NCBI GenBank assembly: GCA_041581495.1
Contig: JBFIDC010000001.1
Span: forward strand, 1 to 38,941
DNA: 38,941 nt
Source of the DNA: Nocardioides sp.
Lineage (GTDB): Bacteria > Actinomycetota > Actinomycetes > Propionibacteriales > Nocardioidaceae
Direction of reading: 5' to 3'
Shown here: positions 730 through 33,194 of the stretch, one piece after another
Layout: every line of letters starts with the position of its first letter
Position numbering within the stretch: position 1 is the stretch's first letter
The notes under the pieces: generated by a model
Told to the model about the DNA's origin: nothing
Databases searched by the model: none
The model's input: only the letters and a program-made list of their open reading frames with translations
Made by a program: the position numbers and the translations under genes

Positions 730-1512
730 ATGCAGTCTCGAACGGCTCTTGTCACCGGTGGCGCACAGGGATTGGGTCTCGCGATCGGGGGCCGGCTGGT
801 CAGTGATGGCTTCGATGTCGTCCTAGCCGACGTCGATGGGGAGGCCGTGCTCGAGGCCGCGGATCTCATCGGAGCGACCGGGGTGCGGATGGACGTGACC
901 GACGATGCGGCGGTGGCATCGGTCTTCGCCGAATTGCCAGACGGCCAACTGGACGTGCTGGTCAACAACGCGGGGATCATCAGTCGACAACCAGCATCAG
1001 AGTTCGACTCCGTGCAGTGGGATCGGGAGATGGCAGTCAACCTGGGCGGCGCGATGCGCTGCAGCCGGGCCGCCTTTGAAATGCTGACGGCTTCAGCGAA
1101 TCCTTCGGTTCTCAATCTAGCCTCCGTCGGCTCCACCTTCGGGCTGCCTCAGCGTCTGGGCTACAGCACGACCAAGGCCGGGGTGCTTGGGCTGACCCGC
1201 ACCCTCGCCGCAGAGTGGGGCCCTCATGGCATCAGGGTCAATGCAATCGCTCCGGGGTATGTCGAAACGCAAATGATGCGCTCAGGCTTCGCCACGGGAG
1301 CGCTCGACGAGAGCCGACTGCTCGACCGGACGCCCTTGGGTCGCTTCGGGACCGCTGATGAGATCGCTGCGGCGGCGTCGTTCCTTGCCTCTGCCGATGC
1401 ATCATTTGTCACTGGCATCGTCTTGAAGGTCGATGGCGGGATCACCATCGACGGCAGCTTTCATGCCCGCCCGCATCCGGCGGGATCCCTGTCTCGGACT
1501 GACCCGATCTGA
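730..1512 (+). CDS. Short-chain dehydrogenase/reductase (SDR)
   Basis: [12 protein letters not shown] and YSTTK motifs. Start moved from 619 to the ATG at 730. Confidence 0.9.
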   Translation: MQSRTALVTGGAQGLGLAIGGRLVSDGFDVVLADVDGEAVLEAADLIGATGVRMDVTDDAAVASVFAELPDGQLDVLVNNAGIISRQPASEFDSVQWDREMAVNLGGAMRCSRAAFEMLTASANPSVLNLASVGSTFGLPQRLGYSTTKAGVLGLTRTLAAEWGPHGIRVNAIAPGYVETQMMRSGFATGALDESRLLDRTPLGRFGTADEIAAAASFLASADASFVTGIVLKVDGGITIDGSFHARPHPAGSLSRTDPI

Positions 1513-1544
1513 CACAGGAGCGGGGCTGCCTTCCGACTTAGGTT
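1500..1544 (+). promoter_or_regulatory. Activator box TGACCCG-ATC-TGACACA (1500-1516), 22 nt, -10 TAGGTT (1539-1544)
   Basis: Read directly. It overlaps the SDR stop codon, and an extra half-site TGTCTCG sits at 1490-1496. Confidence 0.7.
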
Positions 1545-1592
1545 CGCGACCATCAGCGGCGGTCCGCGCCGTGGTCAACCGGGAGGTTCCCC

Positions 1593-2456
1593 ATGAAGGT
1601 GGGCATCTACGTCTTCGCAACTGATCTCGACATGGACCCTGGTCCCTTGGCGAAGGAGATAGAGGACCGGGGCTTCGCCAGCATGTTCTTCCCCGAGCAC
1701 AGCCACATCCCGGTCTCTCGAGAAACGGACTATCCCGATTCTTACGGCGGTGGAGTACTACCGGACTTCTACAAGCGGACCTATGACCCGTTCATCTCCT
1801 GCAGCTTTGCCGCAGCGGCGACTACGAGCCTCCAGGTAGGCACCGGGATCGCCCTGCTCGCGCTGCGCGACGCGGTCCACACCGCCAAGATGGCTGCTTC
1901 GATCGACCGCCTCAGCGGAGGCCGCTTTGCGCTCGGTGTTGGGTTCGGCTGGAACCAGGATGAGTTTGAGACACACGGTGTGGAGTGGAAGACGCGGCAC
2001 CGCAAGGTCCGAGAGCAGGTCGAGTTGATGCGGGTGATGTGGACCGAGGACATCGCCTCCTACGACGGGGATCTCCTCCACCTCCAGCCAAGTTGGTGTT
2101 GGCCCAAGCCCGTGCAGAAGCCGGGACCGCCGGTCTACCTGGGTGGCTCTGGTCCGGTCACGATGAAGCACGCCGCCCAATGGGCCGATGTGTGGTACCC
2201 GACGCCACCCATGCAAGACCCGTTCCTGGAGGAGTCGATCCCGCGATTCAAGCAAATGCTGGTCGAGGCCGGCCGCGATCCCGAGTCGGTGCCCGTCGGG
2301 TGCGCACCCGGGGTCTGTGATGCCGCGGGCCTTGAGGCCTACGCCCGCAACGGGGTGTCCCACGTCAACATCGCGCTGGTCGAAGACACCCCAGACCTGA
2401 TGCTGAAGCGACTCGACGAGATGGCCGCGATGCGCGTCGCAGTTTTGGGTGCCTGA
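1593..2456 (+). CDS. LLM-class, probably F420-dependent oxidoreductase (Rv2161c-like)
   Basis: EHSHIP, YDPF, GTGI and LGVGFGWNQDEF motifs; GGGAGG RBS. Confidence 0.85.
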   Translation: MKVGIYVFATDLDMDPGPLAKEIEDRGFASMFFPEHSHIPVSRETDYPDSYGGGVLPDFYKRTYDPFISCSFAAAATTSLQVGTGIALLALRDAVHTAKMAASIDRLSGGRFALGVGFGWNQDEFETHGVEWKTRHRKVREQVELMRVMWTEDIASYDGDLLHLQPSWCWPKPVQKPGPPVYLGGSGPVTMKHAAQWADVWYPTPPMQDPFLEESIPRFKQMLVEAGRDPESVPVGCAPGVCDAAGLEAYARNGVSHVNIALVEDTPDLMLKRLDEMAAMRVAVLGA

Positions 2457-2514
2457 CGGTGACGGGTTGTCGTGACCGAATCGTGTCTTTTGCTTCCTCC
2501 GTCTCAGTGACCCA

Positions 2515-2559
2515 TGTCTCAAAGCGACACAGCCTCAAGGGGGTTCTCATTCCTAGGTT
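2515..2559 (+). promoter_or_regulatory. Activator box TGTCTCA-AAG-CGACACA (2515-2531), 22 nt, -10 TAGGTT (2554-2559)
   Basis: Read directly, upstream of the ABC operon. Extra half-site CGTCTCA at 2500-2506. Confidence 0.7.
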
Positions 2560-2606: not shown

Positions 2607-3677
2607 ATGACGATGATCGCTGAAACCCCGACCGACCGCTCGGTCGCATTGGGCCGTCGGCCGCTAAGGCTCCCGGGCCAGGGAATCATTCTGGCCAACC
2701 TTGCGCTGGTCCTGATCGGGTTGCTCGTCCTCGACGTACACCTCTTCAGCAGAGCCAGCCTGTCGACTCTGACCCCGACTATCGGCGTGATGATCCTGAT
2801 GGCCCTCGGCCAAGCGTTCATCATCGGCACCGGCGGCATCGACCTGAGCATCCCGTCAACGACCACGCTGGTCGGTGCGATCGTGCTCAAGGAGGCGGGC
2901 GGCGACAACAGCGCCGTGCTCGGCTCGATCGTGCTCGCCTTGCTGGTCTGTCTCGGCATCGGGCTGGCCAACGGTCTGCTGGTGGAGGTCACGCGTCTCG
3001 ACGCGCTGGTGGTGACCCTGGCTACCGGGCAACTGATTGCCGGAATCACCCGCATCTATCGGGGGCCGGTGCTGTCGATCTCAACGGTGCCCTCCGACCT
3101 CTCCGACTTCGCGCGCAGTTCGGTCGGGCACGTCAGCATCATCCTCATCTTGGCCGTGGCGGTCGCGACTCTGATAGCGCTCTGGATGCGCTTCCACACC
3201 TCGGGACGTCGACTCGCGGCCAGCAGCGTGGCTCGACCAGCCGCCGAGAACAGCGGCCTCTCCGCCGCCCGTCAGCGCATCACCGCCTGGATGGTCGGCA
3301 CTCTCATCGTCGGTGTCGGAGCCGTCCTGCTCGCTGGACGCATCTCCACTCCCGACCTCAGTTTGGGTCAGCCGTACCTGCTGACTCCGATCGTCGCCGT
3401 GGTCCTCGGGGGTGCCGCCCTTTCGGGTGGCCGCGTCCGTCCCGCTGCGACCGTGTTCGGCGCGGTCTTCCTCGTCGTGCTCGAGCACATCCTTCGGGTG
3501 CGCGGCTACTCCTCCGGAGTATCGCTCGCCTTCCAGGGCCTCGTCCTCGGGGTCGGGCTCACCCTCGTCGTCGTCTCGAAGCACCTCCGCTGGTCGGTGG
3601 TCTCCGCGCGACGTGGTGGCAACGCCAGTGACCGGTCCACCTCGGACCCGGTCGTGAACCAAGAGAACCAGGAGTAA
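2607..3677 (+). CDS. Sugar (CUT2/RbsC-type) ABC transporter permease
   Basis: Hydrophobic helices; GGIDLS, vTLAT and AVVLGGAALSGG motifs. Confidence 0.9.
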   Translation: MTMIAETPTDRSVALGRRPLRLPGQGIILANLALVLIGLLVLDVHLFSRASLSTLTPTIGVMILMALGQAFIIGTGGIDLSIPSTTTLVGAIVLKEAGGDNSAVLGSIVLALLVCLGIGLANGLLVEVTRLDALVVTLATGQLIAGITRIYRGPVLSISTVPSDLSDFARSSVGHVSIILILAVAVATLIALWMRFHTSGRRLAASSVARPAAENSGLSAARQRITAWMVGTLIVGVGAVLLAGRISTPDLSLGQPYLLTPIVAVVLGGAALSGGRVRPAATVFGAVFLVVLEHILRVRGYSSGVSLAFQGLVLGVGLTLVVVSKHLRWSVVSARRGGNASDRSTSDPVVNQENQE

Positions 3678-3681: not shown

Positions 3682-4974
3682 ATGGGCAACCTCATGCGCC
3701 GTCAAGGCGGCCTACGACGCGGGAGGAGGTCCGCGCTCGCGGTCGGCTTCACCGCCCTCTTGTTGGGGATCACCGCTTGCGGGTCCGACGACACCACCGG
3801 AAGCGGTGGTGGCGGTGGCGACAACGCCTCCGGCGACAGCATCGTCGACCTCAGCACGATCACCGACGACCAGGCTCAAGAGATGACCGACCGGGCCTTC
3901 GGGACCACCGATGTCAGCCTGGACAGTCTGGATAGCACCGTTCAGGAAGCGCTGCGTCGCGCGTCGATCGAGTTGGACGCCGCGCAGCAGGACAAGGCCT
4001 TCGAGTGCTGGCAGAACACCACCTGCACGATCGGTGATGGCGACATCACGCTCGGCATTGCCGATGGCTTCGGTGGCAACCTCTGGCGCAAGACGGCCAA
4101 GATGGAGATCATCCTGCAGGCGCTGACCTACCCGAGCATCGGCAAGATCATCTTCACCGACGCCAACGCCGACTTGCCGACGTTCCTCTCCAACGTGCGC
4201 AGCCTGTCTTCACAGGGAGCCACCGCGATCGTCAGCTACAACGACTTCGGTGCCGCGGCACTGCCGGCCTTCAAGGCCGCACAGGCGGCGGGCGCGAAGA
4301 TCTCGACGTACGTCGGTCCCACGCCCGATGCACCTGCTGACTCGCTGTCCAACCAGATCACTGGCGACGTGTGTTCGATGGGTGAAGAGATGGGCAAGGT
4401 GGCCACCGACGACCTCGGTCTGACCGGCGACCTGGCAATCCTGAACGGCACTCCCGGCAACCCGCAGGGTGCTGCTTGGAACAAGTGCCTGATCGACACT
4501 CTCCCGGCCGGCACTCAGGTCGCTCAGTCGGTCGACACCGACTGGACCTTGGCCGGCGCATTTGACGCTGGCTCGGCGCTGGTCAGCTCCGGCAAGGACT
4601 TCGGTGCGGTCTTCTATGACTACGCCGACCCGATCCCGCAGGTGGTTGAGGCCTACAGCAAGGGTGGCAAGCAGATCCCTGCCATCGTCACCTGGACCTC
4701 AAACAACGGTATGGCCAAGGTTTGGGAAGAACGACTCGGCACTCCCGATGAGTTCGCGCTTTTCCACACCAACGCTCTGACCTGGGAGAGCCGGGCCTCA
4801 GTCACCGCAGTCATGAGTGAACTGGCAGGCAACACCGTCGAGCCCGTCGTGATCGTGCCCCGCCCCTTCGTCCAGGCAGAGAAGGGCTACTACCTGTCCG
4901 ACCGCCCCGACGACTACCCGGGTCCCAGTGCGCTCATCCCCGATGAGCTCATGACCCGCATGCTCGCCGGCTGA
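3682..4974 (+). CDS. ABC substrate-binding lipoprotein (sugar-binding-like)
   Basis: Basic N-region, hydrophobic stretch and lipobox ITAC, then a Gly/Ser linker. Lies between the permease and the ATPase. Confidence 0.85.
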   Translation: MGNLMRRQGGLRRGRRSALAVGFTALLLGITACGSDDTTGSGGGGGDNASGDSIVDLSTITDDQAQEMTDRAFGTTDVSLDSLDSTVQEALRRASIELDAAQQDKAFECWQNTTCTIGDGDITLGIADGFGGNLWRKTAKMEIILQALTYPSIGKIIFTDANADLPTFLSNVRSLSSQGATAIVSYNDFGAAALPAFKAAQAAGAKISTYVGPTPDAPADSLSNQITGDVCSMGEEMGKVATDDLGLTGDLAILNGTPGNPQGAAWNKCLIDTLPAGTQVAQSVDTDWTLAGAFDAGSALVSSGKDFGAVFYDYADPIPQVVEAYSKGGKQIPAIVTWTSNNGMAKVWEERLGTPDEFALFHTNALTWESRASVTAVMSELAGNTVEPVVIVPRPFVQAEKGYYLSDRPDDYPGPSALIPDELMTRMLAG

Positions 4975-5065: not shown

Positions 5066-7663
5066 GTGCCGACCGTGGCCGACCACACCCCCACAGCCGT
5101 GCGCGACCGCGAGACGGTCGGACCCAGCGGCTCCCTGCTCCTCTCGGCGTCCGGTCTCTCCAAGCGGTATGGCGCCGTTCAGGCCCTCGATGATGTGAGT
5201 CTGGACCTGGCCCCTGGCGAGATCCACGCCTTGGTCGGTGAGAACGGATCCGGCAAGTCCACCTTGGTCGGCATCGTCAGCGGAACCGTTGTCAAAGACC
5301 AGGGCCGCCTCACCATCGGCGGCGACATCGTGTCCGCGGCGCGCCCCGCCGTTTCTCAAGGGCATGGCGCCATCACCGTGTTTCAAGACGGGTCGCTCAT
5401 CGATGACCTCACAGTGGCGCAGAACCTCTTCCTCGGGACTGACGGGGTCCATCGACCGAAGTTCTCCAAGATCGCCCACTGGGCAGAGGAGCTGCTCGGT
5501 GCCTACGGCTTCGACATCGACACGACCCTCAAGGCTTCAGCGCTCCCTCCCGGAGATCGCCAACTGGTCGAGATCGTCCGAGCGGTCGCGGCCGAACCCA
5601 GCGTCCTGATCCTCGATGAAGCCACGTCCGCTCTGGACTCCGAGGGCGTGGACATCGTGCTCGAACTCATGCGGCGCGTCGCAGCCAAAGGCAGCGCCGT
5701 TCTCTTCGTCACCCATCGACTCTCCGAAGTGATGCGGGTCGCGCATCGCGTCACGGTCCTTCGCGACGGCCAGTTTCAAGGCACCCACGACGCTGCGCAG
5801 ACCACCCCGCACAAACTCGTCGAACTCATGGCCGGCACCCGGGTCGACCTCGAATTCCCCGAGCGTGGGGACGACGACGGTCAAGCGGTGTTGACCGCCA
5901 GCGGCCTGCACGGCTACGGCTTCGGTCCCGTCGACGCCGAGCTTCGCGGCGGGCAGATCGTGGGCATCGCGGGCGCCGATGGCAACGGTCAGTTGCCCTT
6001 CCTCAAGGGGCTCGCCGGGATCGGTGACAACGGTGGCGCGGTCGAGGTCGGCGGCAAGCGGCTGAAGTCCTATGGCGCCGCGGTCGACGCAGGCGTCGTC
6101 TATCTGAGTTCGGACCGCAAGACTGAGTCTTTGTTCGGCGGACTGACCGTGGGCGACAACATCGGCCTTGGAGTTCTCGACACGCTCTCCATCGGCGGGC
6201 TGATGCGCGTCGGTCGCGAGAAGGCATTCGTCGGTCAGGCCATCGACCAATACGGAATCCGGGTCAACCACCCCGGCCAGTTGCCGACGGAACTCTCCGG
6301 TGGCAACCAGCAGAAGGTGGCGCTGGCGAGAGTGCTGGCGATGAAGCCCAAGATCGTGCTCATCGACGAGCCAACGCAGGGCGTCGACGTGCGGTCCCGC
6401 CTAGATATCTACCGCTTCCTGCGTGCCATCGCCGACAGCGGCAGTGCCGTGGTGGTCGTCAGCTCCGATGCCTCGGAGCTCGCCGGGCTGTGCGACCGCA
6501 TCCTGGTGATGAGCCGCGGCACGGTCACCGCTGAGCTCGTGGGAGCCTCGGCCACCGAGGAGTCGATCGTCGGCGCGTTCGCCGTCGAACACGAACTCGC
6601 CGGTGGAACTGAAGCCCACAGTGCCGAGACAGCAACGGACAGCACTGCGGCCCCGCGCCGGGCGCGCCGCCAGTCCTGGCTTCGTCGCTCGGTCTCGGCT
6701 GACGGCATCCGGCTCGCAGCCCTGGTCGGACTGATGGTGCTTCTGGCGCTGTTCGCTCAATCCAAGAACGACACCTTCCTCACCCAGCCCAGCCTCTATA
6801 ACGTCGCGCTGCTCGCGCTGCCGCTGATCGCGGTGGCGTCGGCCCAATACTTCGTGCTCCTCGTCGGAGGTATCGATGTCTCCGTCGGCGCGGTCATGAC
6901 CTTGTCGCTAATCCTGATGTCCGAGTGGGCCGGGACCGGTGGTGCTGCCAAGGTGCTACTAATCGGCCTACTCGTCTCGCTGCTGCTCGGCGTCACCGTC
7001 GGCGGTGTGAACGCACTGCTGGTGGAGAAGGTCGGCATCTCGCCGGTGATCGCGACGATCGCGACGCTCGGAGTCGTCTCCGGCATCGGCTACATCATGC
7101 GGCCGACCGCGGACGGCCTGATCTCCGCCTCGTTGGCCGAGCAGTTGATGTTCCGCAAGGTTGGCCCGATTCCGATTGCGTTGATCGTCCTGGTGGCCCT
7201 GCTGGTGGTGGCGGATGCCTGGTTCCGGCGCACCGGCTCCGGCCTGCGGCTGCGCGCCGTGGGACTCAACGGGCTGTACGCCACCCGCTTGGGCATTCCC
7301 GCGGCCCGGCTGCGCACCCTCTGCTATGTGCTGTGCGCATCGATCGCTGGTCTCGCGGGTGTCATCCTGGCTGCGCAGGTAGGCATCGGTGACCCGAATG
7401 CCGGCAACTCGTTCACTCTGCTCGCCATCGCCGCACCAGTCCTCGGTGGTGCCGCCCTCTCCGGTGGGCACGGCTCGTTAGTGGGTGCTGCGATCGGCGC
7501 CGGCATCTTGGTGCTCAGTCAAAGTCTCGTCGCCGTCTTGGCCTTGGACAACGGTGCCAGCTTCGTCTTCGCCGGCGTCCTCACCCTCTTTGCCCTGCTC
7601 AGTTCGGGTGAGAGTCTCGCGCGGCTGCGTCGCCTCATGGGCCAGCGGTTCGCGCGTTCCTGA
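5066..7663 (+). CDS. Fused sugar ABC double-domain ATPase (RbsA-like) plus C-terminal permease
   Basis: GENGSGKST, LILDEATS, LSGGNQQK and LIDEPTQGVD, followed by an RbsC-like membrane domain (GGIDVS, APVLGGAALSGG). Confidence 0.9.
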   Translation: MPTVADHTPTAVRDRETVGPSGSLLLSASGLSKRYGAVQALDDVSLDLAPGEIHALVGENGSGKSTLVGIVSGTVVKDQGRLTIGGDIVSAARPAVSQGHGAITVFQDGSLIDDLTVAQNLFLGTDGVHRPKFSKIAHWAEELLGAYGFDIDTTLKASALPPGDRQLVEIVRAVAAEPSVLILDEATSALDSEGVDIVLELMRRVAAKGSAVLFVTHRLSEVMRVAHRVTVLRDGQFQGTHDAAQTTPHKLVELMAGTRVDLEFPERGDDDGQAVLTASGLHGYGFGPVDAELRGGQIVGIAGADGNGQLPFLKGLAGIGDNGGAVEVGGKRLKSYGAAVDAGVVYLSSDRKTESLFGGLTVGDNIGLGVLDTLSIGGLMRVGREKAFVGQAIDQYGIRVNHPGQLPTELSGGNQQKVALARVLAMKPKIVLIDEPTQGVDVRSRLDIYRFLRAIADSGSAVVVVSSDASELAGLCDRILVMSRGTVTAELVGASATEESIVGAFAVEHELAGGTEAHSAETATDSTAAPRRARRQSWLRRSVSADGIRLAALVGLMVLLALFAQSKNDTFLTQPSLYNVALLALPLIAVASAQYFVLLVGGIDVSVGAVMTLSLILMSEWAGTGGAAKVLLIGLLVSLLLGVTVGGVNALLVEKVGISPVIATIATLGVVSGIGYIMRPTADGLISASLAEQLMFRKVGPIPIALIVLVALLVVADAWFRRTGSGLRLRAVGLNGLYATRLGIPAARLRTLCYVLCASIAGLAGVILAAQVGIGDPNAGNSFTLLAIAAPVLGGAALSGGHGSLVGAAIGAGILVLSQSLVAVLALDNGASFVFAGVLTLFALLSSGESLARLRRLMGQRFARS

Positions 7664-7692: not shown

Positions 7693-8451
7693 ATGGGCAA
7701 ACTCACCGCACGCATGGCCGTGATCACCGGCGCCGCCTCGGGTATCGGACTGGCCTCCGCCCGACGCTTCGCTGCCGAGGGCGCCACGGTGGTGCTCTGG
7801 GACCGCGACGCCGAATCGCTCGCGCTCGCGGTGAAGACTGTGGAGGCCGACGGCGGCTCGGCGTTCGGCGTCGAAGCGGACGTCTCTGATCTGGCGTCGG
7901 TCCAGGCCGCGGCCGGGCGCACGCTTGACCTGGTCGGCAACGTGACGGTGCTGATGAACAACGCGGGCGTGCTCGATGACTACGCCCCGATCCTGGAGAC
8001 CGACGAGGACCTCTGGGGCAGGATCATCGGCATCAATCTGACCGGTGTCTATCGGGTGACCAAGGCCCTGCTGCCCTCGATGCTCGAGGCGGGAGGCGGC
8101 ACCATCGTCAACACCTGCTCTATCGCGGGCCTGGTCGCCGGTGGTGGCGGCACTGCCTACACCGCCTCCAAACACGGCGTCCTGGGCCTGACTCGCCAAC
8201 TCGCCTTCGACTACGGCCAGCAGGGCATCCGGGTCAACTGCATCTGCCCGGGCGCCGTCGAGACCGGGATGACCAAGGCCCTCTTTGAAGCCGGCGACGC
8301 CGACGTCATGGACTCGGTCAACAGCGTCCCCGCGGGCCGCTTCGCCCAACCCGACGAACTCGCCAACCTCGCCCTCTTCCTTGCCAGCGAGGACTCCTCC
8401 TTCTCCCACGGCGCACACTTTGTCGCCGACGGAGGCTGGACGATCCGCTAG
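7693..8451 (+). CDS. SDR oxidoreductase (secondary alcohol/ketone dehydrogenase-like)
   Basis: TGAASGIG, NNAG and YTASK motifs; GAAGGA RBS. Confidence 0.9.
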   Translation: MGKLTARMAVITGAASGIGLASARRFAAEGATVVLWDRDAESLALAVKTVEADGGSAFGVEADVSDLASVQAAAGRTLDLVGNVTVLMNNAGVLDDYAPILETDEDLWGRIIGINLTGVYRVTKALLPSMLEAGGGTIVNTCSIAGLVAGGGGTAYTASKHGVLGLTRQLAFDYGQQGIRVNCICPGAVETGMTKALFEAGDADVMDSVNSVPAGRFAQPDELANLALFLASEDSSFSHGAHFVADGGWTIR

Positions 8452-9792: not shown

Positions 9793-9798
9793 GAATCA

Positions 9799-10632: not shown

Positions 10633-11055
10633 TCAGTCGGAAGTCAAAGCGGGAGCGGCGCTTGAGACTGCTGGCTCGTGATGCTGGTGGGTGATCACGT
10701 CAGCCATCGTCGGTGCCTTCACTGCAGCGGCCTTCTCCTGACGCTCCTGCTCGCGATCGACCGCGCGGGAGTTGCGGGTGGCTTTGGCGACCCACATCCG
10801 GCCGGCGGACTCCGACATGTGGCACAGGCCCGGGATCTGGGGGTATTGCTGGCACAGGGTGGGGCCGGTGCGGGTCGAGGAGGTGGGAGGCTCGATAGGA
10901 GCGGAGCGCGAGCCAGAGAGGCCGACGGCTGCAAACAGCCGCCGGCTCTCGGCACCGCAGGTCGCACAAGACACCGACTCAGGCGGGGGGCTGGGGGTCC
11001 AGTGCTCCGCGCGGGTCTGACAGTCGCGGCATTGGTAGTCCACAAGGATCGACAT
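10633..11055 (-). CDS. FmdB-family zinc-ribbon protein
   Basis: DYQCRDC...CATCG..SRRLF pattern; starts 11 nt after the lactonase stop. Confidence 0.8.
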   Translation of the reverse strand: MSILVDYQCRDCQTRAEHWTPSPPPESVSCATCGAESRRLFAAVGLSGSRSAPIEPPTSSTRTGPTLCQQYPQIPGLCHMSESAGRMWVAKATRNSRAVDREQERQEKAAAVKAPTMADVITHQHHEPAVSSAAPALTSD

Positions 11056-11888: not shown

Positions 11889-11990
11889 ACCGTGCTCCCG
11901 CCGAGGGGGCAAACGCCGTCCCACTTTGCGACAGGGCCGGGACACTGTCGCAAACTCGCACACTCCCGACGACTCGGCCGGGCATTGACT
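11889..11990. promoter_or_regulatory. Back-to-back activator-box promoters for the lactonase (-) and the Zn-ADH operon (+)
   Basis: Minus strand: TGTCGCA-AAG-TGGGACG (11933-11917), 22 nt, CACGGT (11894-11889). Plus strand: TGTCGCA-AAC-TCGCACA (11946-11962), 22 nt, TTGACT (11985-11990), with the ATG 6 nt later. Confidence 0.75.
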
Positions 11991-20874: not shown

Positions 20875-20875
20875 G

Positions 20876-22704: not shown

Positions 22705-22749
22705 AGCCTCACGTGCACAGGGCCGATGTCGTTGTCCCAACTTGCGACA
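22705..22749 (-). promoter_or_regulatory. Activator box TGTCGCA-AGT-TGGGACA (22749-22733), 22 nt, -10 GAGGCT (22710-22705)
   Basis: Read directly. The ATG at 22698 is 6 nt downstream with no room for an RBS. Confidence 0.75.
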
Positions 22750-24583: not shown

Positions 24584-24600
24584 TGGGACTGGCCTCCGAC

Positions 24601-26458: not shown

Positions 26459-26505
26459 ACAGTAGCCCCTGCCTTAGAGGCACCTCACTGTGCCGATTTG
26501 GGACA
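26459..26505 (-). promoter_or_regulatory. Activator box TGTCCCA-AAT-CGGCACA (26505-26489), 24 nt, -10 TACTGT; probable autoregulatory site
   Basis: Read directly. The spacing differs by 2 nt from the other seven sites. Confidence 0.55.
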
Positions 26506-26584
26506 CATCGCCTGCGGTCCGCGCCGCCCGGGGCGGACCTCTGCCGTTGCGAGGCTGACGGTGTCTCACGCGCCGTCGCACGCT

Positions 26585-26629
26585 CGTCCCGAAATGGGAC
26601 AACTTATTGCGCCGGCTTCTCACCACGAT
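26585..26629 (+). promoter_or_regulatory. Activator box CGTCCCG-AAA-TGGGACA (26585-26601), 22 nt, -10 CACGAT (26624-26629)
   Basis: Read directly, upstream of the BVMO gene. Extra half-site TGTCTCA at 26562-26568. Confidence 0.75.
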
Positions 26630-26675: not shown

Positions 26676-28316
26676 ATGAGCGACGAGGTCAAGGCGGAGG
26701 GGGGGACCACGGAGGTCGACGCCATCGTCATCGGCTCGGGGTTCGCCGGGCTCTACAGCATTCACAAGCTGAGGAACGTTGACGGTCTCACCGTCCAGGC
26801 GTTTGAGAACGCTGGCGATGTGGGAGGCACTTGGTACTGGAACCAGTACCCGGGTGCCCGATCAGACACCGAGGTCAACGCCTACTGCTACTCCTTCGAC
26901 AAGGAGCTCTTCCACGAGTGGAAGTGGTCCGAGCGGTACCCGCGTCAGGAAGAGATCTGGTCCTATCTCAAGCACGTGGCGGACCGCTACGACCTGCGAC
27001 GAAGCATTCAGTTCGATACCCAGGTCGAGACAGCCACCTGGGACGAAGCGGCGAGTCAGTGGATCGTCACCACCGATGATGGCAAGGCTTGGCGTGCCAA
27101 GTTCCTCATCGAGGCAGTCGGGTTGCTGTCTGCTACCAAGGTCCCGCACTTTGCAGGCGAGGACCGGTTCAAGGGTCAGATACACCACACCGCCCGCTGG
27201 CCTCAGGGGGATGTCGACCTGAGCGGCAAGCGGGTTGGCGTGATCGGGACCGGCTCCAGCGGCATCCAGGTGATCAGCGAGTTGGCCGACAAGGTCGGTC
27301 ACATGACCGTATTCCAACGCACCCCGCAGTGGGTCGTGCCATCCAAGCACCGACCAATCGCCCCGGGCTTGCTGGAGAAGATCGAGGCTGACTACGAGGG
27401 ATATTGGCGCGACGTTCTCTACTCGGTCACCGCTTTCGGCTTCGAAGAAAGCGACATCGCCGCCGAGGACGTCTCGTATGAGGAGCGCATCAAGCGGTTC
27501 GAGGAGCAGTACGAGGACGGCGGCGGGTTCCAATACATGTTCGCGGCGTTCAACGACGTCGCGGTTAGTCGGGTTGCCAACGCCGCCGCCACCGAGGTGA
27601 TTGCGGGCAAGATCCGCGAGACTGTCAAGGATCCGGTGACCGCCAACCTGTTGATCCCCAGCGATCTCTACGCTAAACGCCCGTTGTGCTGCGACGGCTA
27701 CTACGAGACCTTCAACCGCGACAACGTCGAGCTTGTCGATGTCCAGCACGACCCCATCGTGGAGTTCACCGAGAACGGGATCCGCACTGAAGACGGCGTG
27801 GAGCACGAACTCGACGTTGTCATTTTGGCGACGGGCTTCGACGCGGTCTCGGGCAACCAGCTCAAGATCCAACATCGCGGTCGTGGGGGTGTTTCCCTGC
27901 ACGATCACTGGGCGCACCGCCCTCGTACGCACCTCGGGTTGATGGCGCACGGGTTCCCCAACCTCTACATGATCTACGGCCCCATGGGTCCATTCACCAA
28001 TCAGCCGCCGCTGCACGAGGCTCAGGTGAACTGGGTCGCCGGCACCATCCAGCACGTCCTGAACAACGACCTGGCCTCGATCGAGGCCACCGCGGATGCC
28101 GAGGAGGCGTGGATCGCCGAGAGTGACGAGGGTGCGTCTGGCACCTTGTTCGCGGTGACCAACTCGTGGATCAACGGGTCGAACATCCCTGGAAAGCCCA
28201 TCATCAACATGTTCTACATGGGTGGGTCTGGGGCATACATGGACAAGATGGCGCACGAGGTGGAGACCGACTATCGGGAGAACTTCACCCTCGGCCACGC
28301 GCCTGTACCCGCGTGA
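26676..28316 (+). CDS. Type I Baeyer-Villiger monooxygenase (cyclohexanone monooxygenase-like)
   Basis: GSGFAG, GGTWYWNQYPGARSD, fingerprint FKGQIHHTARWP, GTGSSG, AKRPL and ATGFD motifs. ATG at 26676 follows AAGGGAG. Confidence 0.93.
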   Translation: MSDEVKAEGGTTEVDAIVIGSGFAGLYSIHKLRNVDGLTVQAFENAGDVGGTWYWNQYPGARSDTEVNAYCYSFDKELFHEWKWSERYPRQEEIWSYLKHVADRYDLRRSIQFDTQVETATWDEAASQWIVTTDDGKAWRAKFLIEAVGLLSATKVPHFAGEDRFKGQIHHTARWPQGDVDLSGKRVGVIGTGSSGIQVISELADKVGHMTVFQRTPQWVVPSKHRPIAPGLLEKIEADYEGYWRDVLYSVTAFGFEESDIAAEDVSYEERIKRFEEQYEDGGGFQYMFAAFNDVAVSRVANAAATEVIAGKIRETVKDPVTANLLIPSDLYAKRPLCCDGYYETFNRDNVELVDVQHDPIVEFTENGIRTEDGVEHELDVVILATGFDAVSGNQLKIQHRGRGGVSLHDHWAHRPRTHLGLMAHGFPNLYMIYGPMGPFTNQPPLHEAQVNWVAGTIQHVLNNDLASIEATADAEEAWIAESDEGASGTLFAVTNSWINGSNIPGKPIINMFYMGGSGAYMDKMAHEVETDYRENFTLGHAPVPA

Positions 28317-29512
28317 GCATCAACCTCGAGCACTCGCAGGAGGTCCGCGACCTTGTGACGCGGACCTCCGCGTTCGTCCGAGAGGTCGTCGTCCCACTCG
28401 AGGACGCCGCCGCCGGTGACATGGTGCAGGCTGGCGGCGACACTTTCCGGCGTGAACTTCAAGCCGACGCCAGTGCGCGTGGACTGCTCAGCCCGCACGG
28501 GCCGCTCGAGTACGGCGGCCTGGGATTGGGGATGGTCGACCGCGCGCCGGTCTTCGAGGCCGCTGGTCATTCCCTCTTTGGCCCGCTCGCGATCAATGTG
28601 GCTGCGCCCGACGAGGGGAACGTGCACCTCCTGGCGCACATTGCGACTGCCGAGCAACGAGAGGAGTTCTTGCGCCCGTTGGTCCAGGGCCGGGTTCGCT
28701 CGGCGTTCGCCATGACCGAGCCAGCCCCCGGGGCAGGTTCGGATCCGACTGCGCTTCGGACAGCGGCCCGCCGAGTGGCCGGCGGCTGGCGGGTCTCAGG
28801 TGAGAAGTGGTTCATCACCGGCGCTGATGGCGCGGGCTTCTTCATCATCATGGCACGCACTGCTGGAGAACCCGGTGAGTCGCACGGCGCCACGATGTTC
28901 TTGGCCCCAGCCGACAGCGTTGGCATCAGTGTTGGCCGGCACATCGGCACACTCGACCGCTCGATGGTCGGAGGACACTGCGAGGTACGTTTTGACGACG
29001 TCTTCGTCCCCGACGAGAGAGTGCTCGGCGAGGTCGATCGAGGCTTTGCGAACGCCCAGGTCCGCCTTGGTCCGGCTCGGATGACCCACGTGATGAGGTG
29101 GCTCGGCGCCGCTCGGCGAGGGCACGAGATCGCCTTGCGCCACGTGGCCGAGAGACAGGGTTTCGGTTCTCGCCTGGCCGACCTCGGCATGGTTCAACAA
29201 CTGGTTGCCGACAGCGAGATCGACATTGCGGCCACCCGCGCACTGCTGCTGCAAGCCTGTTGGGAACTGGACCAGGGCGAACGGGCCTCGATGTCGACCT
29301 CGATTGCCAAGACATTTGCTGCCGAGGCAATCGGTCGGATCGTGGATCGGGCCATTCAGATGTGCGGCGGGCTGGGGGTCAGCGACGATCTGCCGCTGGC
29401 CAGGCTGTCCCGCGAAGTGCGACCGTTCCGAATCTACGACGGGGCCTCCGAGGTGCACCGGTGGTCGATCGCCAAGCGCGCTGTCCATCACGCGACTGGG
29501 GCCAGGTCATGA
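28313..29512 (+). CDS. Acyl-CoA dehydrogenase, ACAD10/11 / FadE2 / LvaC-like
   Basis: APDEGN, RSAFAMTEP, RLGPARMTHVMRWLG and RIYDGASEVH motifs. GTGA overlap with the BVMO gene. Confidence 0.88.
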   Translation: MSINLEHSQEVRDLVTRTSAFVREVVVPLEDAAAGDMVQAGGDTFRRELQADASARGLLSPHGPLEYGGLGLGMVDRAPVFEAAGHSLFGPLAINVAAPDEGNVHLLAHIATAEQREEFLRPLVQGRVRSAFAMTEPAPGAGSDPTALRTAARRVAGGWRVSGEKWFITGADGAGFFIIMARTAGEPGESHGATMFLAPADSVGISVGRHIGTLDRSMVGGHCEVRFDDVFVPDERVLGEVDRGFANAQVRLGPARMTHVMRWLGAARRGHEIALRHVAERQGFGSRLADLGMVQQLVADSEIDIAATRALLLQACWELDQGERASMSTSIAKTFAAEAIGRIVDRAIQMCGGLGVSDDLPLARLSREVRPFRIYDGASEVHRWSIAKRAVHHATGARS

Positions 29513-30528
29513 CAGACCTCACCCAGATCGACCTCGACCGACTCTCGCGGCACCTGGCCGATGCCGGTGAGCCAGTCTCCGGGCCACTGCGCGCTTCAGT
29601 GCTGGTGGGTGGGCGCTCCAACCTGACCTACCGGCTTGAGGACGACCAATCCGCCTGGGCGATGCGTCGTCCCCCGCGCAGCGGTGTCATCGAATCGGCC
29701 CACGACGTCATCCGCGAATACCGCATAGTCGAGGCCTTGCAGGGTCTCGAGGTCCCGGTGGCCCGAACGGTGGCCTGCGATCCCGAGGGTGTCGTGCTGG
29801 GTGCCCCATGCGCGGTGGTTGCCTTCGTGCCCGGTTTCACCGCACGTGGCCAAGACGATATCGCTGACTGGGACGACGCGAGCTTTGACGCGTGCGCCGA
29901 CGCACTGGTCGCTGCGCTCGCGGCACTGCACGCGGTGGATCCCGACGCGGTCGGCCTCGGTGACTTTGGGCGGCCGAACGGGTATGCCTCGCGCCAACTC
30001 AGACGGTGGTCGGGGCAGTGGGACGCGATGGGTGCGCAGGATGAGCGAGCCGACCAGCTACGGACTTGGTTGGCTGGCCGGGTGCCCGAACAAGCGAGGT
30101 CAACGCTCGTGCATGGCGACTACCGAGTCGACAACGTGTTGCTTGACCCTCACGACCCGGGCCGGGTCTTGGCGGTCGTCGATTGGGAGCTCTCCACGCG
30201 GGGTGACCCCGTGGCTGACGTGGCCACAATGTGCGCCTACCGGCACCCAGCCCTTGATCTCGTCTTGGGCATCGAAGCGGCTTGGACCAGCCCTCGGTGG
30301 CCCTCGCCCGAATCGCTTGCCGATCGCTATGCCCGGCACGCTGGGACCGACCTCCCGGCATTCGGTTTCTATCTTGCTCTCGCCTTCTACAAGCTCGCGG
30401 TGATCGCGCAAGGCATCGTCTTCCGGCACGGCCTCGGGGTCACGGTTGGTGAGGGATACGAGGGGGTCGGTGCCAGCGTGCCTGTGCTCCTTGAGGCAGG
30501 CCTCGCGGCGGCGGCTGCCCATGACTGA
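29509..30528 (+). CDS. APH-family phosphotransferase (ACAD10/11 kinase-domain-like)
   Basis: GGRSNLTY, RRPP, SAHDV.REY, HGDYRVDN and DWELST.GDP motifs. ATGA overlap. Confidence 0.88.
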   Translation: MTDLTQIDLDRLSRHLADAGEPVSGPLRASVLVGGRSNLTYRLEDDQSAWAMRRPPRSGVIESAHDVIREYRIVEALQGLEVPVARTVACDPEGVVLGAPCAVVAFVPGFTARGQDDIADWDDASFDACADALVAALAALHAVDPDAVGLGDFGRPNGYASRQLRRWSGQWDAMGAQDERADQLRTWLAGRVPEQARSTLVHGDYRVDNVLLDPHDPGRVLAVVDWELSTRGDPVADVATMCAYRHPALDLVLGIEAAWTSPRWPSPESLADRYARHAGTDLPAFGFYLALAFYKLAVIAQGIVFRHGLGVTVGEGYEGVGASVPVLLEAGLAAAAAHD

Positions 30529-31264
30529 GCAGCTCAGTGCCCTGGTTACGGGTGCCTCGCGGGGGATCGGGTTCGGAATCGCCGAACGGCTTGCTTCTCG
30601 CGGTTATGCGCTCACGATCGCGGCTCGCGACGCCGCTGCTTTGTCCGAGACCGCAGGCCGGCTCCGGGCAGTCGGAGCCCCCTCGGTCGTAGAGGTGCCC
30701 GGCGACCTCGCCGACCCCGACCACACCGCGGCACTGGCGCGCGCGCACGCGCAGAGATTCGGGCATCTCTCATGTCTGGTTCTCAACGCAGGTGTCGGGA
30801 CAGCCGGCGGGATCTCGGAGTTCTCACCAAGACGACTCGACAAGACGATCGCGGTGAACTTACGTGCCCCCTTTGTCCTGCTCCAGCATTGCCTGCCGCT
30901 GCTGCGGGCAGCTGCGGGGTATGACCCCAATCGGGGGGCGCGGGTGATCGCGCTCGCCTCCATCACTGGAGTGTTTGCCGAATCCGGGCTCGCGGCCTAT
31001 GGCGCGACCAAGGCCGCGCTGCTGTCTTTGGTCGAAACGTTGAACGTCGAGGAGTCCCCTCGCGGGGTGACGGCCACGGCGTTGGCGCCCGGATATGTCG
31101 AAACCGATATGACCGATTGGGTCCGCGATCAGGTGCCGGCCACGGAGATGATCCCGGTGGGTGATCTGGTCGAACTGGTCGACGCGATCATCAGCCTCAG
31201 CGCACGATCTGTTGTCTCAAGGCTTGTCATCAGCCGCGCCGGAGGCCCGGCGTACGGCGCCTAG
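30521..31264 (+). CDS. SDR oxidoreductase
   Basis: TGASRGIG, NAG and YGATK motifs. Start at 30521. Confidence 0.88.
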   Translation: MTEQLSALVTGASRGIGFGIAERLASRGYALTIAARDAAALSETAGRLRAVGAPSVVEVPGDLADPDHTAALARAHAQRFGHLSCLVLNAGVGTAGGISEFSPRRLDKTIAVNLRAPFVLLQHCLPLLRAAAGYDPNRGARVIALASITGVFAESGLAAYGATKAALLSLVETLNVEESPRGVTATALAPGYVETDMTDWVRDQVPATEMIPVGDLVELVDAIISLSARSVVSRLVISRAGGPAYGA

Positions 31265-31276
31265 AAGGAGTCCACA

Positions 31277-32014
31277 ATGAACATGCTTGAGGGTCGTGCT
31301 GCCGTCATCACGGGTGGTGCTCAGGGTCTGGGCCGAGCGATCGCCGAACGTTTCGTTGCCGAGGGAGCACGAGTAGTCATCGGGGACGTCGACCTCGCCT
31401 CGGCGGCGGCGACCGTGGCCGATCTGGGTGGCGCGAGTGTTGCGCTTGCCGTTCGTTGCGACGTCACGTCGGAGGCCGACATGGCCCTGTTGGTGGCCTC
31501 GGCCGACGAGTTCGGCGGAGTGGATGTCATGGTCAACAACGCCGGGGTGCTGCGCGACGCCACCATGCGCAAGATGACCCTCGACGACTTCCGACTGGTG
31601 CTCGACACCCATGTTCAGGGCACCTGGTTGGGCACCCGTGCGGCCGCAGCCGTCATGCGCGAGCGCGGTGTGGGCTCGATCGTCAACATGTCGTCAATCT
31701 CGGGCAAGGTGGGGAATCTTGGGCAGACCAACTATTCAGCCGCCAAGGCTGGGATCGTCGGACTGACCAAGGCCGCGGCCAAGGAAGTCGCCCACCTCGG
31801 AGTGCGTGTCAATGCGATCCAGCCCGGTCTCATCCGCACGCCGATGACCGAGGCAATGCGCGAAGACATCTGGCAGCAGCGCCTTGGCGAGATTCCGATG
31901 GGGCGCTTCGGCGAGCCCGAAGAGGTTGCGGCAGTGGCCACGTTCCTGGCCGGTGACCTGTCGTCCTACATGACCGGGTGTGTGTTGGAGGTGACTGGTG
32001 GCCGACACATGTGA
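31277..32014 (+). CDS. fabG: 3-oxoacyl-(ACP/CoA) reductase, FabG-like
   Basis: [16 protein letters not shown] and [14 protein letters not shown] motifs; AAGGAG RBS. Confidence 0.85.
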
Positions 32015-33194
32015 GGCCTATGTCTATGCCGCGGCGCGCACTCCCTTCGGTCGTTACGCCGGGGCCTTAGCGCAGATTCGTCCTGATGATCTGGCCGCCG
32101 CCGCCGTGTTGGGTGCGCTCGAGAAGGCCCCCGCACTCGACCCCGCACGCATCGGCGATGTCGTGTGGGGCTGCGCCAACCAAGCCGGTGAAGACAACCG
32201 GAACGTGGGCAGGATGGCCGTGTTGCTTGCCGGGCTGCCGGTGTCAGTCTCAGCCACCACGGTGAACCGATTGTGCGGCTCCAGCCTCGACGCGGCCATG
32301 ATGGCTTCACGCACGATCGAGACCGCCGACGCTCAGGTGGTGCTCGTCGGCGGCGTCGAGTCGATGAGCCGTGCACCCTGGGTGCTACCCAAGCCGGCAC
32401 GCGGGTATCCCGCCGGCAACGCCGAGTTGGTCTCCACCACTCTCGGCTGGCGACTGGTCAATGAGCAGATGCCGGCGCAATGGACCGTCTCGTTGGGCGA
32501 GTGTAATGAACTCCTGGCGCAAGAGCGCCGCATTGGTCGGGACCGCCAGGACGCGTTCGCCGCCCGCTCGCACGCACTGGCAGACGCCGCCTGGAAGGCC
32601 GGCTTCTATGACGAACTGGTTGTCGCTGTCCCGGGTCTCGATCTGGTTCGTGACGAGACCATCCGACCTGCGACCACATCCGAGGGGTTGTCGTCGCTGG
32701 CGCCGTCGTTTCGTTCCGATGGCACGATCACTGCGGGCAATGCGTCCCCGCTTAGCGATGGTGCATCTGCACTGATCCTGGGCTCTGAGTCGGCCGCTGA
32801 TCTGCTCGGCCTGGACCCCGTGGCTCGCATCGCCGGTCGCGGCACGAGCGCCATCGAGCCGCAGAACTTTGGGATCGCGCCCGTTGAGGCCGCGGATCGG
32901 GCCCTGTCCCGAGCTGGAATCACGTGGGCGGATGTCTCGGCTGTTGAGCTCAACGAAGCCTTTGCCGTGCAGTCACTGGCGTGCGTCGATGATTGGGGAA
33001 TCGACCCTGAGATCGTCAACACCAAGGGCGGCGCGATTGCGCTCGGGCACCCGCTGGGCGCCTCGGGCGGCAGAATCCTGGGGACGCTGACGCACCGCCT
33101 TGCTGAGTCCGGCGATCGCTGGGGCGTTGCGGCGATCTGCATCGGCGTGGGTCAAGCGCTGGCAGTGGTGGTGGAGAACGTCACCGCAAGGTGA
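31998..33194 (+). CDS. Acetyl-CoA C-acyltransferase (thiolase, PcaF/PaaJ-like)
   Basis: [19 protein letters not shown] and ICIGVGQ motifs; GGAGG 6 nt before the GTG. Confidence 0.9.

What the first reader, a model, noticed from the sequence alone, without database searches (positions are those of the whole stretch)
730..33194. Candidate complete, unassigned pathway for a substituted cyclic alcohol, diol or ketone
Established logic from the chn/cpn cycloalkanol pathways: alcohol dehydrogenase, BVMO, lactone hydrolase, hydroxyacid dehydrogenase, semialdehyde dehydrogenase, CoA ligase, beta-oxidation. Seen: a candidate for every step is here and shares the same operator. The extras are non-canonical: an MBL-fold rather than alpha/beta lactonase, a sugar-type importer, a diol dehydrogenase with split transketolase, a Cys-less thiolase/DUF35 pair, an Lva-like kinase module and an F420-type LLM. 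Inference: the substrate is a polar, branched alicyclic compound such as a methylcyclohexanol/diol or an oxygenated monoterpenoid. It cannot be named from sequence.
Basis: inference. Interest (0 to 1): 0.78.

Follow-up and report, generated by a model that had tools for sequence, protein, structure and literature searches.

The report
Orphan ring-opening pathway for hydroxylated cycloketones
A conserved set of genes in soil and water Actinobacteria shares one DNA control motif and likely imports a hydroxylated ring-shaped alcohol or ketone, opens the ring with oxygen, and is predicted to cut the products with an aldolase and a rebuilt transketolase-like enzyme rather than by ordinary fatty-acid breakdown; its substrate is still unnamed.

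Summary
All listed genes are present. The shared operator is real: a motif learnt only from other genomes ranks six window promoter sites top of the 3.0 Mb genome. Nine other full clusters, in at least four families, keep an invariant core: BVMO, metallo-lactonase, Zn-ADH, ALDH, ADP-forming CoA ligase, Cys-less thiolase, glycerol-dehydrogenase homologue, split transketolase, F420-type LLM, ABC importer and regulator. The BVMO forms a sister clade to cyclohexanone monooxygenases with a more polar pocket (L437Q in 118 of 118). The transketolase pair keeps the ThDP machinery but has lost five sugar-phosphate residues, and elsewhere it travels without the BVMO beside an alpha-hydroxyketone-cleaving cupin. 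Best model (inferred, about 0.4): a 3-hydroxy-type cyclic ketone gives two lactones; one product is cut by retro-aldol cleavage and the other by diol oxidation plus ThDP cleavage. I found no characterised syntenic pathway. It works like chn but is not a chn member. Cultured strains make it testable.

The parts
678..694 (.). operator palindrome before SDR1
   Evidence: rank 5 in genome
730..1512 (+). SDR1, short-chain dehydrogenase; often beside the TK-GldA genes (6 of 9 other clusters at 45% or more; 61% in BVMO-less G1053)
1500..1516 (.). weaker operator site before the LLM gene
   Evidence: rank 14
1593..2456 (+). F420-type LLM oxidoreductase (TIGR03619, over cut-off); core, 9 of 9; genome encodes CofE
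2515..2531 (.). operator before the ABC operon
   Evidence: rank 6
2607..3677 (+). ABC permease (sugar/CUT2 type); core
3682..4974 (+). solute-binding lipoprotein, ribose-binding-protein fold, at most 20% identical to listed solved structures; core
5066..7663 (+). fused double ATPase plus permease; core
7693..8451 (+). SDR2; variable (5 of 9 at 48% or more)
10633..11055 (-). small Zn-ribbon protein directly after the lactonase; 8 of 9; function unknown
11067..11855 (-). MBL-fold lactonase (AHL-lactonase/4-pyridoxolactonase relatives; HxHxDH intact); core
11917..11962 (.). two operator sites in the divergent MBL / Zn-ADH promoter
   Evidence: ranks 4 and 11
11997..13097 (+). Zn-ADH (best solved match 1vj0); core; likely omega-hydroxyacid dehydrogenase
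13140..14585 (+). GabD-like semialdehyde dehydrogenase; core
14602..16152 (+). AMP-forming acyl-CoA synthetase (PRK08162-like, under cut-off); 7 of 9
16149..17285 (+). Cys-less SCP2-type thiolase-like protein (Gly at nucleophile site, YDSF motif); likely retro-aldolase; core
17285..17665 (+). DUF35 (ChsH2-type Zn ribbon plus OB fold), partner of the aldolase-like protein
17662..19752 (+). ADP-forming acyl-CoA ligase (fused alpha-beta); core
19795..20874 (-). glycerol-dehydrogenase (GldA) family diol dehydrogenase (PRK09423 over cut-off); core
20876..21862 (-). transketolase-like C-terminal subunit; R358, H461 and D469 equivalents lost; core
21859..22698 (-). transketolase-like N-terminal subunit; H26 is Tyr, H100 is Ser; core
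22733..22749 (.). operator before the TK-GldA operon
   Evidence: rank 1
22766..24583 (-). regulator 2 (DhaR/AcoR-like, Fis HTH), 73% identical to regulator 1
24601..26400 (-). regulator 1 (DhaR/AcoR-like, Fis HTH, no GAFTGA); likely reads the palindrome
26489..26601 (.). two operator sites in the divergent regulator / BVMO promoter
   Evidence: ranks 2 and 3
26676..28316 (+). type I Baeyer-Villiger monooxygenase, sister clade of CHMO, polar pocket (Y434, Q443, H447, N500)
28313..29512 (+). ACAD10/11 (LvaC)-type acyl-CoA dehydrogenase homologue; accessory, 3 of 9
29509..30528 (+). APH-family kinase (LvaA/ACAD10-like); accessory, 4 of 9
30521..31264 (+). SDR3; accessory, 1 of 9
31277..32014 (+). 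SDR4, FabG-like; accessory, 4 of 9 at 67% or more
31998..33194 (+). thiolase with both catalytic Cys motifs, PcaF-like (under cut-off); accessory

Best explanation
The genes share one operator motif, travel together across Actinomycetes, and likely form a catabolic regulon that imports a hydroxylated cyclic alcohol or ketone, is predicted to open the ring with a polar-pocket Baeyer-Villiger monooxygenase and a metallo-lactonase, and would then cut the products by two non-thiolytic reactions. The most likely substrate type is a ring ketone with a hydroxyl at position 3 (cyclohexane-1,3-diol / 3-hydroxycyclohexanone as the simplest case, or a substituted or five-membered analogue).

Inferred steps. 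(1) The LLM, with SDRs where present, sets the ketone. (2) The BVMO inserts oxygen on either side, giving two lactones, and the MBL opens both. (3, branch A) The 3,6-dihydroxy acid goes through Zn-ADH and ALDH to a 3-hydroxy diacid, then the ADP-forming ligase to the CoA ester; the Cys-less thiolase/DUF35 cleaves it retro-aldol to acetyl-CoA and succinate semialdehyde, which the GabD-like ALDH oxidises. (4, branch B) The 5,6-dihydroxy acid has a terminal vicinal diol; GldA oxidises it to a hydroxymethyl ketone, the transketolase-like pair cleaves that to a semialdehyde plus a one-carbon aldehyde, and the ALDH finishes. (5) The accessory APH/ACAD/SDR/thiolase genes would rescue the diacid when it is activated at the other end, as a 4-hydroxyacyl-CoA.

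Shown: genes, motif, co-inheritance and active-site residues. Inferred: every reaction and the substrate.
For: Core of nine enzyme types plus importer and regulator in 9 of 9 other full clusters despite reshuffled order; this scheme uses all nine. BVMO: of seven ligand-contacting TmCHMO residues named in PMC5213842, five are kept; L428 is Tyr or Phe and L437 is Gln in 118 of 118 clade members; I441H and F494N are also 118 of 118, and canonical CHMOs keep L, I and F. TK pair: against E. coli TktA, H66, D155, N185, H261, E411, H473 and R520 are kept; H26, H100, R358, H461 and D469 are lost (H26Y and H100S in 36 of 36 clade loci; D469 in 29 of 29). Papers tie H461 to phosphate binding and H26Y/D469Y to altered use of a plain aldehyde (PMC3657141), and loss of the H100 equivalent to alkyl instead of hydroxymethyl donors (PMC11997939). 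TK-TK-GldA also occurs with no BVMO within 10 kb, with a DAD-family cupin inside the operon in 6 of 7 long non-redundant metagenome loci; DAD cleaves a hydroxymethyl ketone to acid plus formate (PMC4219425). The same cupin lies in 2 of 9 BVMO clusters. Aldolase: Gly at the nucleophile site and the Tyr of the YDxF motif match Ltp2/Sal (PMC12329534); in 4 of 9 clusters it is replaced by a distant (33-34%) protein that also lacks the Cys and has YDCF. ACAD has the Pro, Arg and Asp marks of ACAD10/11. The accessory thiolase scores best on 3-oxoadipyl-CoA thiolase models.
Against: No substrate, activity or expression data. No member of the BVMO clade, TK-like family or binding-protein family was found with a measured function. 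Two-sided oxygen insertion on 3-substituted cyclohexanones is recalled for CHMO, not tested for this clade. The aldolase-like protein has Ser where Sal needs Cys and Ltp2 has His, and a Cys-to-Ser change killed Sal, so its acid residue must differ. The Zn-ADH is only 22-23% identical to the ADH of the JS666 cluster and could act on a ring alcohol. BVMO-less loci also carry two FGGY kinases and a HAD phosphatase that this model does not explain. The same TK changes occur in a wider family (about 50% identity) found in other contexts, so the residues do not fix the substrate. I know no abundant natural source of the simplest candidate.
Confidence: 0.4

Rival explanations
1. Linear route for a branched ring polyol with a tertiary alcohol (for example a methylcyclohexanetriol or an oxygenated monoterpenoid). 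After BVMO, lactonase, ADH, ALDH and CoA ligase, the aldolase removes acetyl-CoA and leaves an internal alpha-ketol acid such as 3-hydroxylevulinate, which GldA and the TK-like pair process.
For: Uses the same core. Ltp2 cleaves a tertiary C17 alcohol. Loss of H100 suits an acetyl-type donor. The Lva-type genes suit 4-oxo/4-hydroxy acids.
Against: Of the BVMO-less TK-GldA loci tabulated, only La6 carries the aldolase and ADP-forming ligase, so TK-GldA usually works without an aldolase upstream. Sal cleaves to an aldehyde, so a tertiary alcohol is not required. DAD chemistry points to a terminal hydroxymethyl ketone.
Confidence: 0.22
2. Cyclic 1,2-diol pathway. GldA and SDR1 oxidise cis/trans 1,2-diols to the cyclic acyloin, and the TK-like pair opens the ring directly to a dialdehyde or keto-aldehyde, in parallel with the BVMO route.
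For: GldA family acts on vicinal diols. TK variants lacking the H100 equivalent make plain acyloins from aldehydes (PMC12432537), the reverse reaction. BVMO and TK are adjacent genes on one strand in Cnuibacter and G1218.
Against: A 2-hydroxy ketone gives a lactol that opens by itself (recalled), leaving the invariant lactonase, Zn-ADH, aldolase and the 4-hydroxyacyl-CoA genes without a role.
Confidence: 0.15
3. The ring holds a heteroatom: an anhydro- or deoxy-sugar ketone or a pyranone. The BVMO product collapses to a dihydroxy-acid lactone, which is also what the BVMO-less loci import.
For: Sugar-type importer. BVMO-less loci pair TK-GldA with a sugar ABC system, SMP-30 lactonase and FGGY kinases.
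Against: In a low-confidence alignment to E. coli RbsB (probability 18.7) three polar positions (R141, N190, D215; their ligand role is recalled) are W266, Y314 and T339, which suggests fewer hydroxyls than a sugar. The aldolase branch is not explained.
Confidence: 0.12
4. An ordinary chn-type cycloalkanol pathway ending in beta-oxidation, with TK, GldA, aldolase and importer as passengers.
For: BVMO is sister to CHMO; a related regulator and the same palindrome precede the canonical CHMO of G1406.
Against: The supposed passengers are in 9 of 9 clusters and the beta-oxidation genes are not. No hydratase. The pocket differs at invariant positions.
Confidence: 0.06
5. The cluster handles deoxynivalenol or its fragments.
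For: Nocardioides sp. LS1, which assimilates DON by unknown genes (PMC6406115), has TK (82%) and binding-protein (65%) orthologues 13 accession numbers apart, as the window's gene order predicts, although only 2 of 300 family genomes have the clade BVMO.
Against: One strain only. The CHMO-type pocket is compact. Two searches found no paper linking these genes to DON.
Confidence: 0.02

Closest known systems
chn cyclohexanol pathway (Polaromonas JS666 cluster; its chn identity is recalled; G1406 as actinobacterial control)
   Same: CHMO-related type I BVMO (53% to JS666), GAF/Fis-type regulator, ADH and ALDH logic; G1406 has the same palindrome
   Different: MBL instead of alpha/beta hydrolase; unrelated Zn-ADH (22-23%); polar BVMO pocket; invariant ABC importer, LLM, GldA, TK-like pair and aldolase-like pair; no core beta-oxidation
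Transketolase, including the split enzyme of Carboxydothermus (6yak/6yaj)
   Same: two-gene layout, ThDP/Mg motif, H66, H261, E411, H473, R520
   Different: H26, H100, R358, H461 and D469 lost; resembles engineered non-sugar variants; linked to GldA and a DAD-family cupin
Ltp2-ChsH2(DUF35) and Sal-Shy steroid side-chain aldolases
   Same: Gly for the nucleophilic Cys, catalytic Tyr of YDxF, adjacent DUF35
   Different: YDSF motif with His at the Tyr344/Gln352 position; stand-alone DUF35; no MaoC hydratase; non-steroid context
Lva pathway / ACAD10-11 4-hydroxyacyl-CoA module
   Same: APH kinase plus ACAD with the Pro, Arg and Asp marks; AMP-forming ligase and SDRs nearby
   Different: accessory here (3-4 of 9); no room for an LvaB-type gene between APH and SDR3 (LvaB recalled); direct identity to Lva proteins not measured
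2,4'-dihydroxyacetophenone dioxygenase (DAD)
   Same: cleaves alpha-hydroxyketones; family members sit in TK-GldA operons and in 2 of 9 BVMO clusters
   Different: not found in G000 (genome 92% complete); oxidative rather than ThDP cleavage
AHL lactonases / 4-pyridoxolactonase (MBL fold)
   Same: HxHxDH and the other metal ligands
   Different: far under NCBIfam cut-offs (135.5 against 390 for AttM); His where the AHL lactonase 9khq has Tyr; catabolic context

Membership tests
chn cycloalkanol pathway | type I BVMO related to CHMO | tested here: met
   fingerprint at residues 165-176, D64 and R335 kept; sister clade to CHMO, separating branch support 1.0 in a 33-sequence FastTree
chn cycloalkanol pathway | CHMO pocket residues (L428, L437, I441, F494) | tested here: not met
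   Y/F, Q, H and N in 118 of 118
chn cycloalkanol pathway | alpha/beta-hydrolase caprolactone hydrolase | tested here: not met
   MBL in 10 of 10 clusters; controls JS666 and G1406 have Abhydrolase_3
chn cycloalkanol pathway | ChnD-type hydroxyacid dehydrogenase orthologue | tested here: inconclusive
   a Zn-ADH is present but only 22-23% identical to the JS666 enzyme
chn cycloalkanol pathway | activity and growth on cyclohexanol/cyclohexanone | not testable with these tools
   needs assay
transketolase EC 2.2.1.1 | ThDP/Mg binding and activation residues | tested here: met
   H66, D155, N185, E411, F437 equivalents kept
transketolase EC 2.2.1.1 | sugar-phosphate residues H26, H100, R358, H461, D469 | tested here: not met
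   Y38, S111, L26, M125 and a gap; R358 alignment is less certain
apulose- or sulfo-transketolases (AptAB, SqwGH; recalled) | orthology to the characterised split enzymes | not tested
   sequences not fetched; no such NCBIfam model hit
Ltp2/Sal aldolases | Gly at nucleophile site, Tyr in YDxF, DUF35 partner | tested here: met
Ltp2/Sal aldolases | second catalytic residue (Tyr344 of Ltp2 or Cys304 of Sal) and MaoC hydratase partner | tested here: not met
   YDSF and His; no MaoC in window
ACAD10/11-LvaAC module | APH kinase next to ACAD with Pro, Arg, Asp marks | tested here: met
   best solved matches are ACAD11; marks kept, assuming a two-residue offset between 8v3u and the paper's numbering
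Lva operon | LvaB-type small gene with LvaA (recalled) | tested here: not met
   ACAD, APH and SDR3 overlap end to end; Rand 2017 not held
F420-dependent LLM, TIGR03619 | score over cut-off; host makes F420 | tested here: met
   238.6 against 166.9; CofE over cut-off in G000; only this one F420 gene was checked
AttM/AiiA AHL lactonases | score over family cut-off | tested here: not met
   135.5 against 390; 97.9 against 375
CUT2 monosaccharide-binding proteins | ribose-binding-protein fold | tested here: met
   model pLDDT 88.9; Foldseek E 3e-15, 11-20% identity; ligand not determined

The most novel reading that the evidence does not exclude
This is a previously undescribed catabolic design in which a naturally evolved, polar-pocket BVMO yields two ring-opened products and a forked lower pathway disposes of both without beta-oxidation. 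One arm uses a natural transketolase-derived ketol lyase, a ThDP counterpart of DAD, that cleaves non-phosphorylated hydroxymethyl-keto acids and is spread from Actinomycetes to Proteobacteria as its own module.
Probability: 0.3. Interest if true: 0.8.

Novelty: new variant of a known kind. Interest (0 to 1): 0.58.

Why it matters
It defines an orphan carbon-cycling pathway by its invariant core, and named isolates carry it or parts of it (full cluster read in N. marinquilinus JCM 18459, Marmoricola URHB0036 and C. physcomitrellae XA; single orthologues in Nocardioides LS1, Blastococcus PRF04-17 and Herbiconiux ginsengi). It flags two enzyme families of biocatalytic interest: a CHMO sister clade with a fixed polar pocket, and a transketolase-like family that naturally carries changes at positions chemists mutate to accept non-sugar substrates. 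Databases label these proteins 'cyclohexanone monooxygenase' and 'transketolase', which is probably misleading.

Tried and rejected
No solved relative of the binding protein by sequence; fold and Atlas searches gave only generic sugar-binding folds, and the Atlas added nothing for TKn. The SDR2 search gave no specific function. Sigma-70 promoter and terminator scans were at chance level. Sequencing-run search: no RNA holder listed; 4 DNA runs of one study, which may be the source, so not used as evidence. DAD homologue not found in G000; Cupin_7 found in 1 of 5 genomes searched. No rpoN found in G000 (92% complete). Literature: none of ten searches listed a paper describing this gene set (most subscription journals are not held). 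The Brevibacterium HCU cyclohexanone papers, Rand 2017 and Aggett 2019 were not held; I recall, unverified, that one HCU cluster uses a Zn-dependent lactonase, which would make the MBL less unusual. PMC13018869 passages did not confirm the recalled lactone rearrangement of 4-hydroxycyclohexanone; a plain 4-hydroxy/1,4-diol substrate was set aside because it leaves GldA and TK without a role. Our earlier findings held nothing relevant. Left out of the 9-cluster count: G1217 (BVMO plus SDR1 at a contig end), G304 (cluster split, only partly read), G814 (6 kb contig), and L016-L022, L025, L034, L049, L063, L066 (10 kb flanks only). No complex prediction was run.

Full report
Setting. The window is contig C1 of G000 (3.02 Mb, 92% complete). 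Its closest named BVMO relatives are from Nocardioides and Marmoricola, so the host is likely a Nocardioides-type actinobacterium.

Gene content. No enoyl-CoA hydratase was found among the 32 proteins scanned. 8482-10313 is an insertion: G181 has SDR2 directly beside the Zn-ribbon gene and G242 has other genes there.

Operator. Seven intergenic palindromes match a window-derived consensus within two mismatches; the genome holds 30 such sites, 8 of them in the window, and all 3 with 0-1 mismatch are in the window. That test is circular, so I learnt a matrix from 12 upstream regions of three other genomes. It put window sites at ranks 1-6, 11 and 14 among 164 sites scoring over 9 bits. Sites recur before the matching genes in other clusters. 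The motif is not unique to this pathway: G1406, a canonical CHMO with an alpha/beta hydrolase, has a related regulator and the same palindrome. The regulators lack GAFTGA and no rpoN was found. That the regulators bind the motif is inferred.

Distribution. The clade BVMO was in 2 of 300 other family genomes, 5 of 296 genomes in the order of G944, and 2 of 401 in the order of G302, where a third hit, G1406, is canonical. Clade TKn was in 4 of 400 other class genomes. Outside the family, 7 of 8 records with the clade BVMO showed the full cluster; G1217 showed only BVMO and SDR1 at a contig end. In nine other full clusters (G242, G181, Cnuibacter plasmid, G944, G1218, G1150, G1099, G1398, G1643), one search gives 9 of 9 for LLM, the three ABC genes, MBL, Zn-ADH, ALDH, thiolase-like, ADP ligase, GldA, both TK genes, regulator and BVMO. 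Eight were found through the BVMO and one through TKn, so those genes are partly present by construction. DUF35 was found by tblastn in 5, by Pfam in 2 more, seen as an ORF in G944, and not checked in G1150. Variable genes: Zn-ribbon 8, AMP ligase 7, SDR1 6, SDR2 5, SDR4 4, APH 4, ACAD 3, DAD cupin 2, SDR3 1, orthologous thiolase 1. Gene order is reshuffled between families, which argues for a functional link, although kin are not independent.

BVMO. Its best solved matches are cyclohexanone monooxygenases; it is 53% identical to the JS666 enzyme. In a tree of 22 of the 120 listed homologues plus 11 locus sequences, the clade is sister to canonical CHMOs. Catalytic Asp and Arg are kept. Passages of PMC5213842 name seven ligand contacts in TmCHMO. 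Five are kept; L428 is Tyr (74) or Phe (44) and L437 is Gln in all 118 full-length homologues, with I441H and F494N also invariant (2 of 120 short sequences dropped). This suggests a substrate with hydrogen-bonding groups (inference). That paper's supplement on neighbouring genes was not seen.

Transketolase-like pair. Aligned to E. coli TktA fetched from MG1655, cofactor and deprotonation residues are kept while H26, H100, R358, H461 and D469 are lost throughout the clade and kept in most canonical loci (H26 50 of 51, H100 50 of 51, D469 23 of 26; the R358 column aligned poorly). Passages of PMC3657141, PMC11997939 and PMC12432537 show that changes at these positions shift engineered enzymes towards non-phosphorylated, non-hydroxylated partners. 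It should not be filed as a pentose-phosphate transketolase; G000 has another TK-like locus on C68. Close homologues (74-77%) are named from Microvirga, Stappia, Roseovarius and Hoeflea. TK-TK-GldA occurs with no BVMO in the DNA read in La6, Variovorax, G1053 and seven long metagenome loci (two near-duplicate loci dropped). Six of those seven have a DAD-family cupin in the operon; DAD cleaves alpha-hydroxyketones (passages of PMC4219425). Four of them, and La6, carry their own ACAD/ligase/APH genes at about 33-46% identity. Several carry an SMP-30 lactonase, two FGGY kinases and a HAD phosphatase. The module therefore looks like diol oxidation followed by ketol cleavage, fed by a lactonase. 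Against this: related TK-like proteins with GldA absent occur in other contexts (G359, G569, G571, L046, L047, L067).

Aldolase-like pair. The nucleophilic Cys is Gly and the YDxF Tyr is kept, as in Ltp2 and Sal (passages of PMC12329534). Its second catalytic residue differs. In four clusters a distant YDCF protein takes its place, which suggests the pathway needs retro-aldol chemistry rather than this particular protein.

Accessory module. The ACAD's best solved matches are ACAD11, and it keeps the Pro, Arg and Asp marks (passages of PMC11342911). In G1218 and G1099 a HAD gene lies close by, echoing ACAD10's domain set. This points to a 4-hydroxyacyl-CoA side product, not to core beta-oxidation.

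Importer. The model (pLDDT 88.9, 96-sequence alignment) has the ribose-binding fold with no close solved relative. A weak alignment to RbsB hints at a less polar pocket.

Synthesis. A ring ketone with a 3-hydroxyl is the simplest substrate that employs all nine core enzymes and also explains the accessory genes: one lactone yields a beta-hydroxy acid (CoA ligase, aldolase), the other a terminal vicinal diol (GldA, TK-like cleavage), and both end at a GabD-like ALDH. This is inference, about 0.4. A linear route on a branched polyol, a cyclic 1,2-diol route and an oxacyclic substrate remain open. Together these readings, in which the ring carries extra oxygen functions and the lower pathway is not plain beta-oxidation, take about 0.9.

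Known systems and novelty. It works like chn through ring opening but fails chn membership on the hydrolase and pocket features, and it is not syntenic with the two chn-type clusters inspected. Ten literature searches (listings only, except the papers named) showed no description of this gene set, but key subscription papers were not held. Other papers seen: passages of PMC9477822 and PMC13018869, and part 1 of 2 of PMC6406115. Verdict: real, conserved and unassigned; a new variant of a known kind; interest 0.58.

Noticed in passing
window 10633-11055 (-): Small Zn-ribbon protein directly after the MBL lactonase in 8 of 9 other clusters; no function known; could be an accessory subunit or a regulator.
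   Followed up: partly
window 8482-10313 (-): DUF222 and DUF5997 genes inserted at the junction of two convergent operons; G242 has different genes there and G181 none. DUF222 has further copies on C109, C327 and C178.
   Followed up: partly
window 22766-26400 (-): Tandem regulator duplication (73% identical); one copy in Marmoricola URHB0036 and Cnuibacter, two in most Nocardioides loci read.
   Followed up: partly
L044, L045, L050-L062, G1053 (L142-L144): BVMO-less TK-TK-(DAD cupin)-GldA-SDR module, often with two tandem FGGY kinases, a HAD phosphatase, an SMP-30 lactonase and a sugar ABC or tricarboxylate importer: a second orphan pathway.
   Followed up: partly
G944, G1218, G1150, G1643: The thiolase-like gene is replaced by a distant YDCF (Sal-like motif) protein with its own DUF35.
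   Followed up: yes
G1218:C101 11526-13106 and 34837-36393: Two paralogous clade BVMOs (57% and 60%) at either end of one cluster, with a DAD cupin and a CN-hydrolase gene inside.
   Followed up: partly
P0157, P0277 (Nocardioides sp. LS1): A deoxynivalenol-assimilating isolate carries TK and binding-protein orthologues spaced as in the window; probably coincidence, but cheap to test.
   Followed up: partly
L025, L034: Many cluster genes are in pieces in these two MAG loci: assembly errors or decay; not resolved.
   Followed up: no
L046, L047, L129, L130-L132: A wider TK-like family (about 50-62% identity) shares the H26-to-Tyr change and the loss of H100; it sits with SDRs and transporters and was not assigned a function here.
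   Followed up: partly
window 1-620 (-), 33198-38909: Flanks: a sulfotransferase-domain gene, a TetR-like ORF (not scanned) with a DUF7802 membrane protein, an SNF2 helicase, a hydrolase-like ORF without family hit and a PPOX-class F420 protein; apart from an SNF2 hit in L034, none recurs beside the other clusters.
   Followed up: partly
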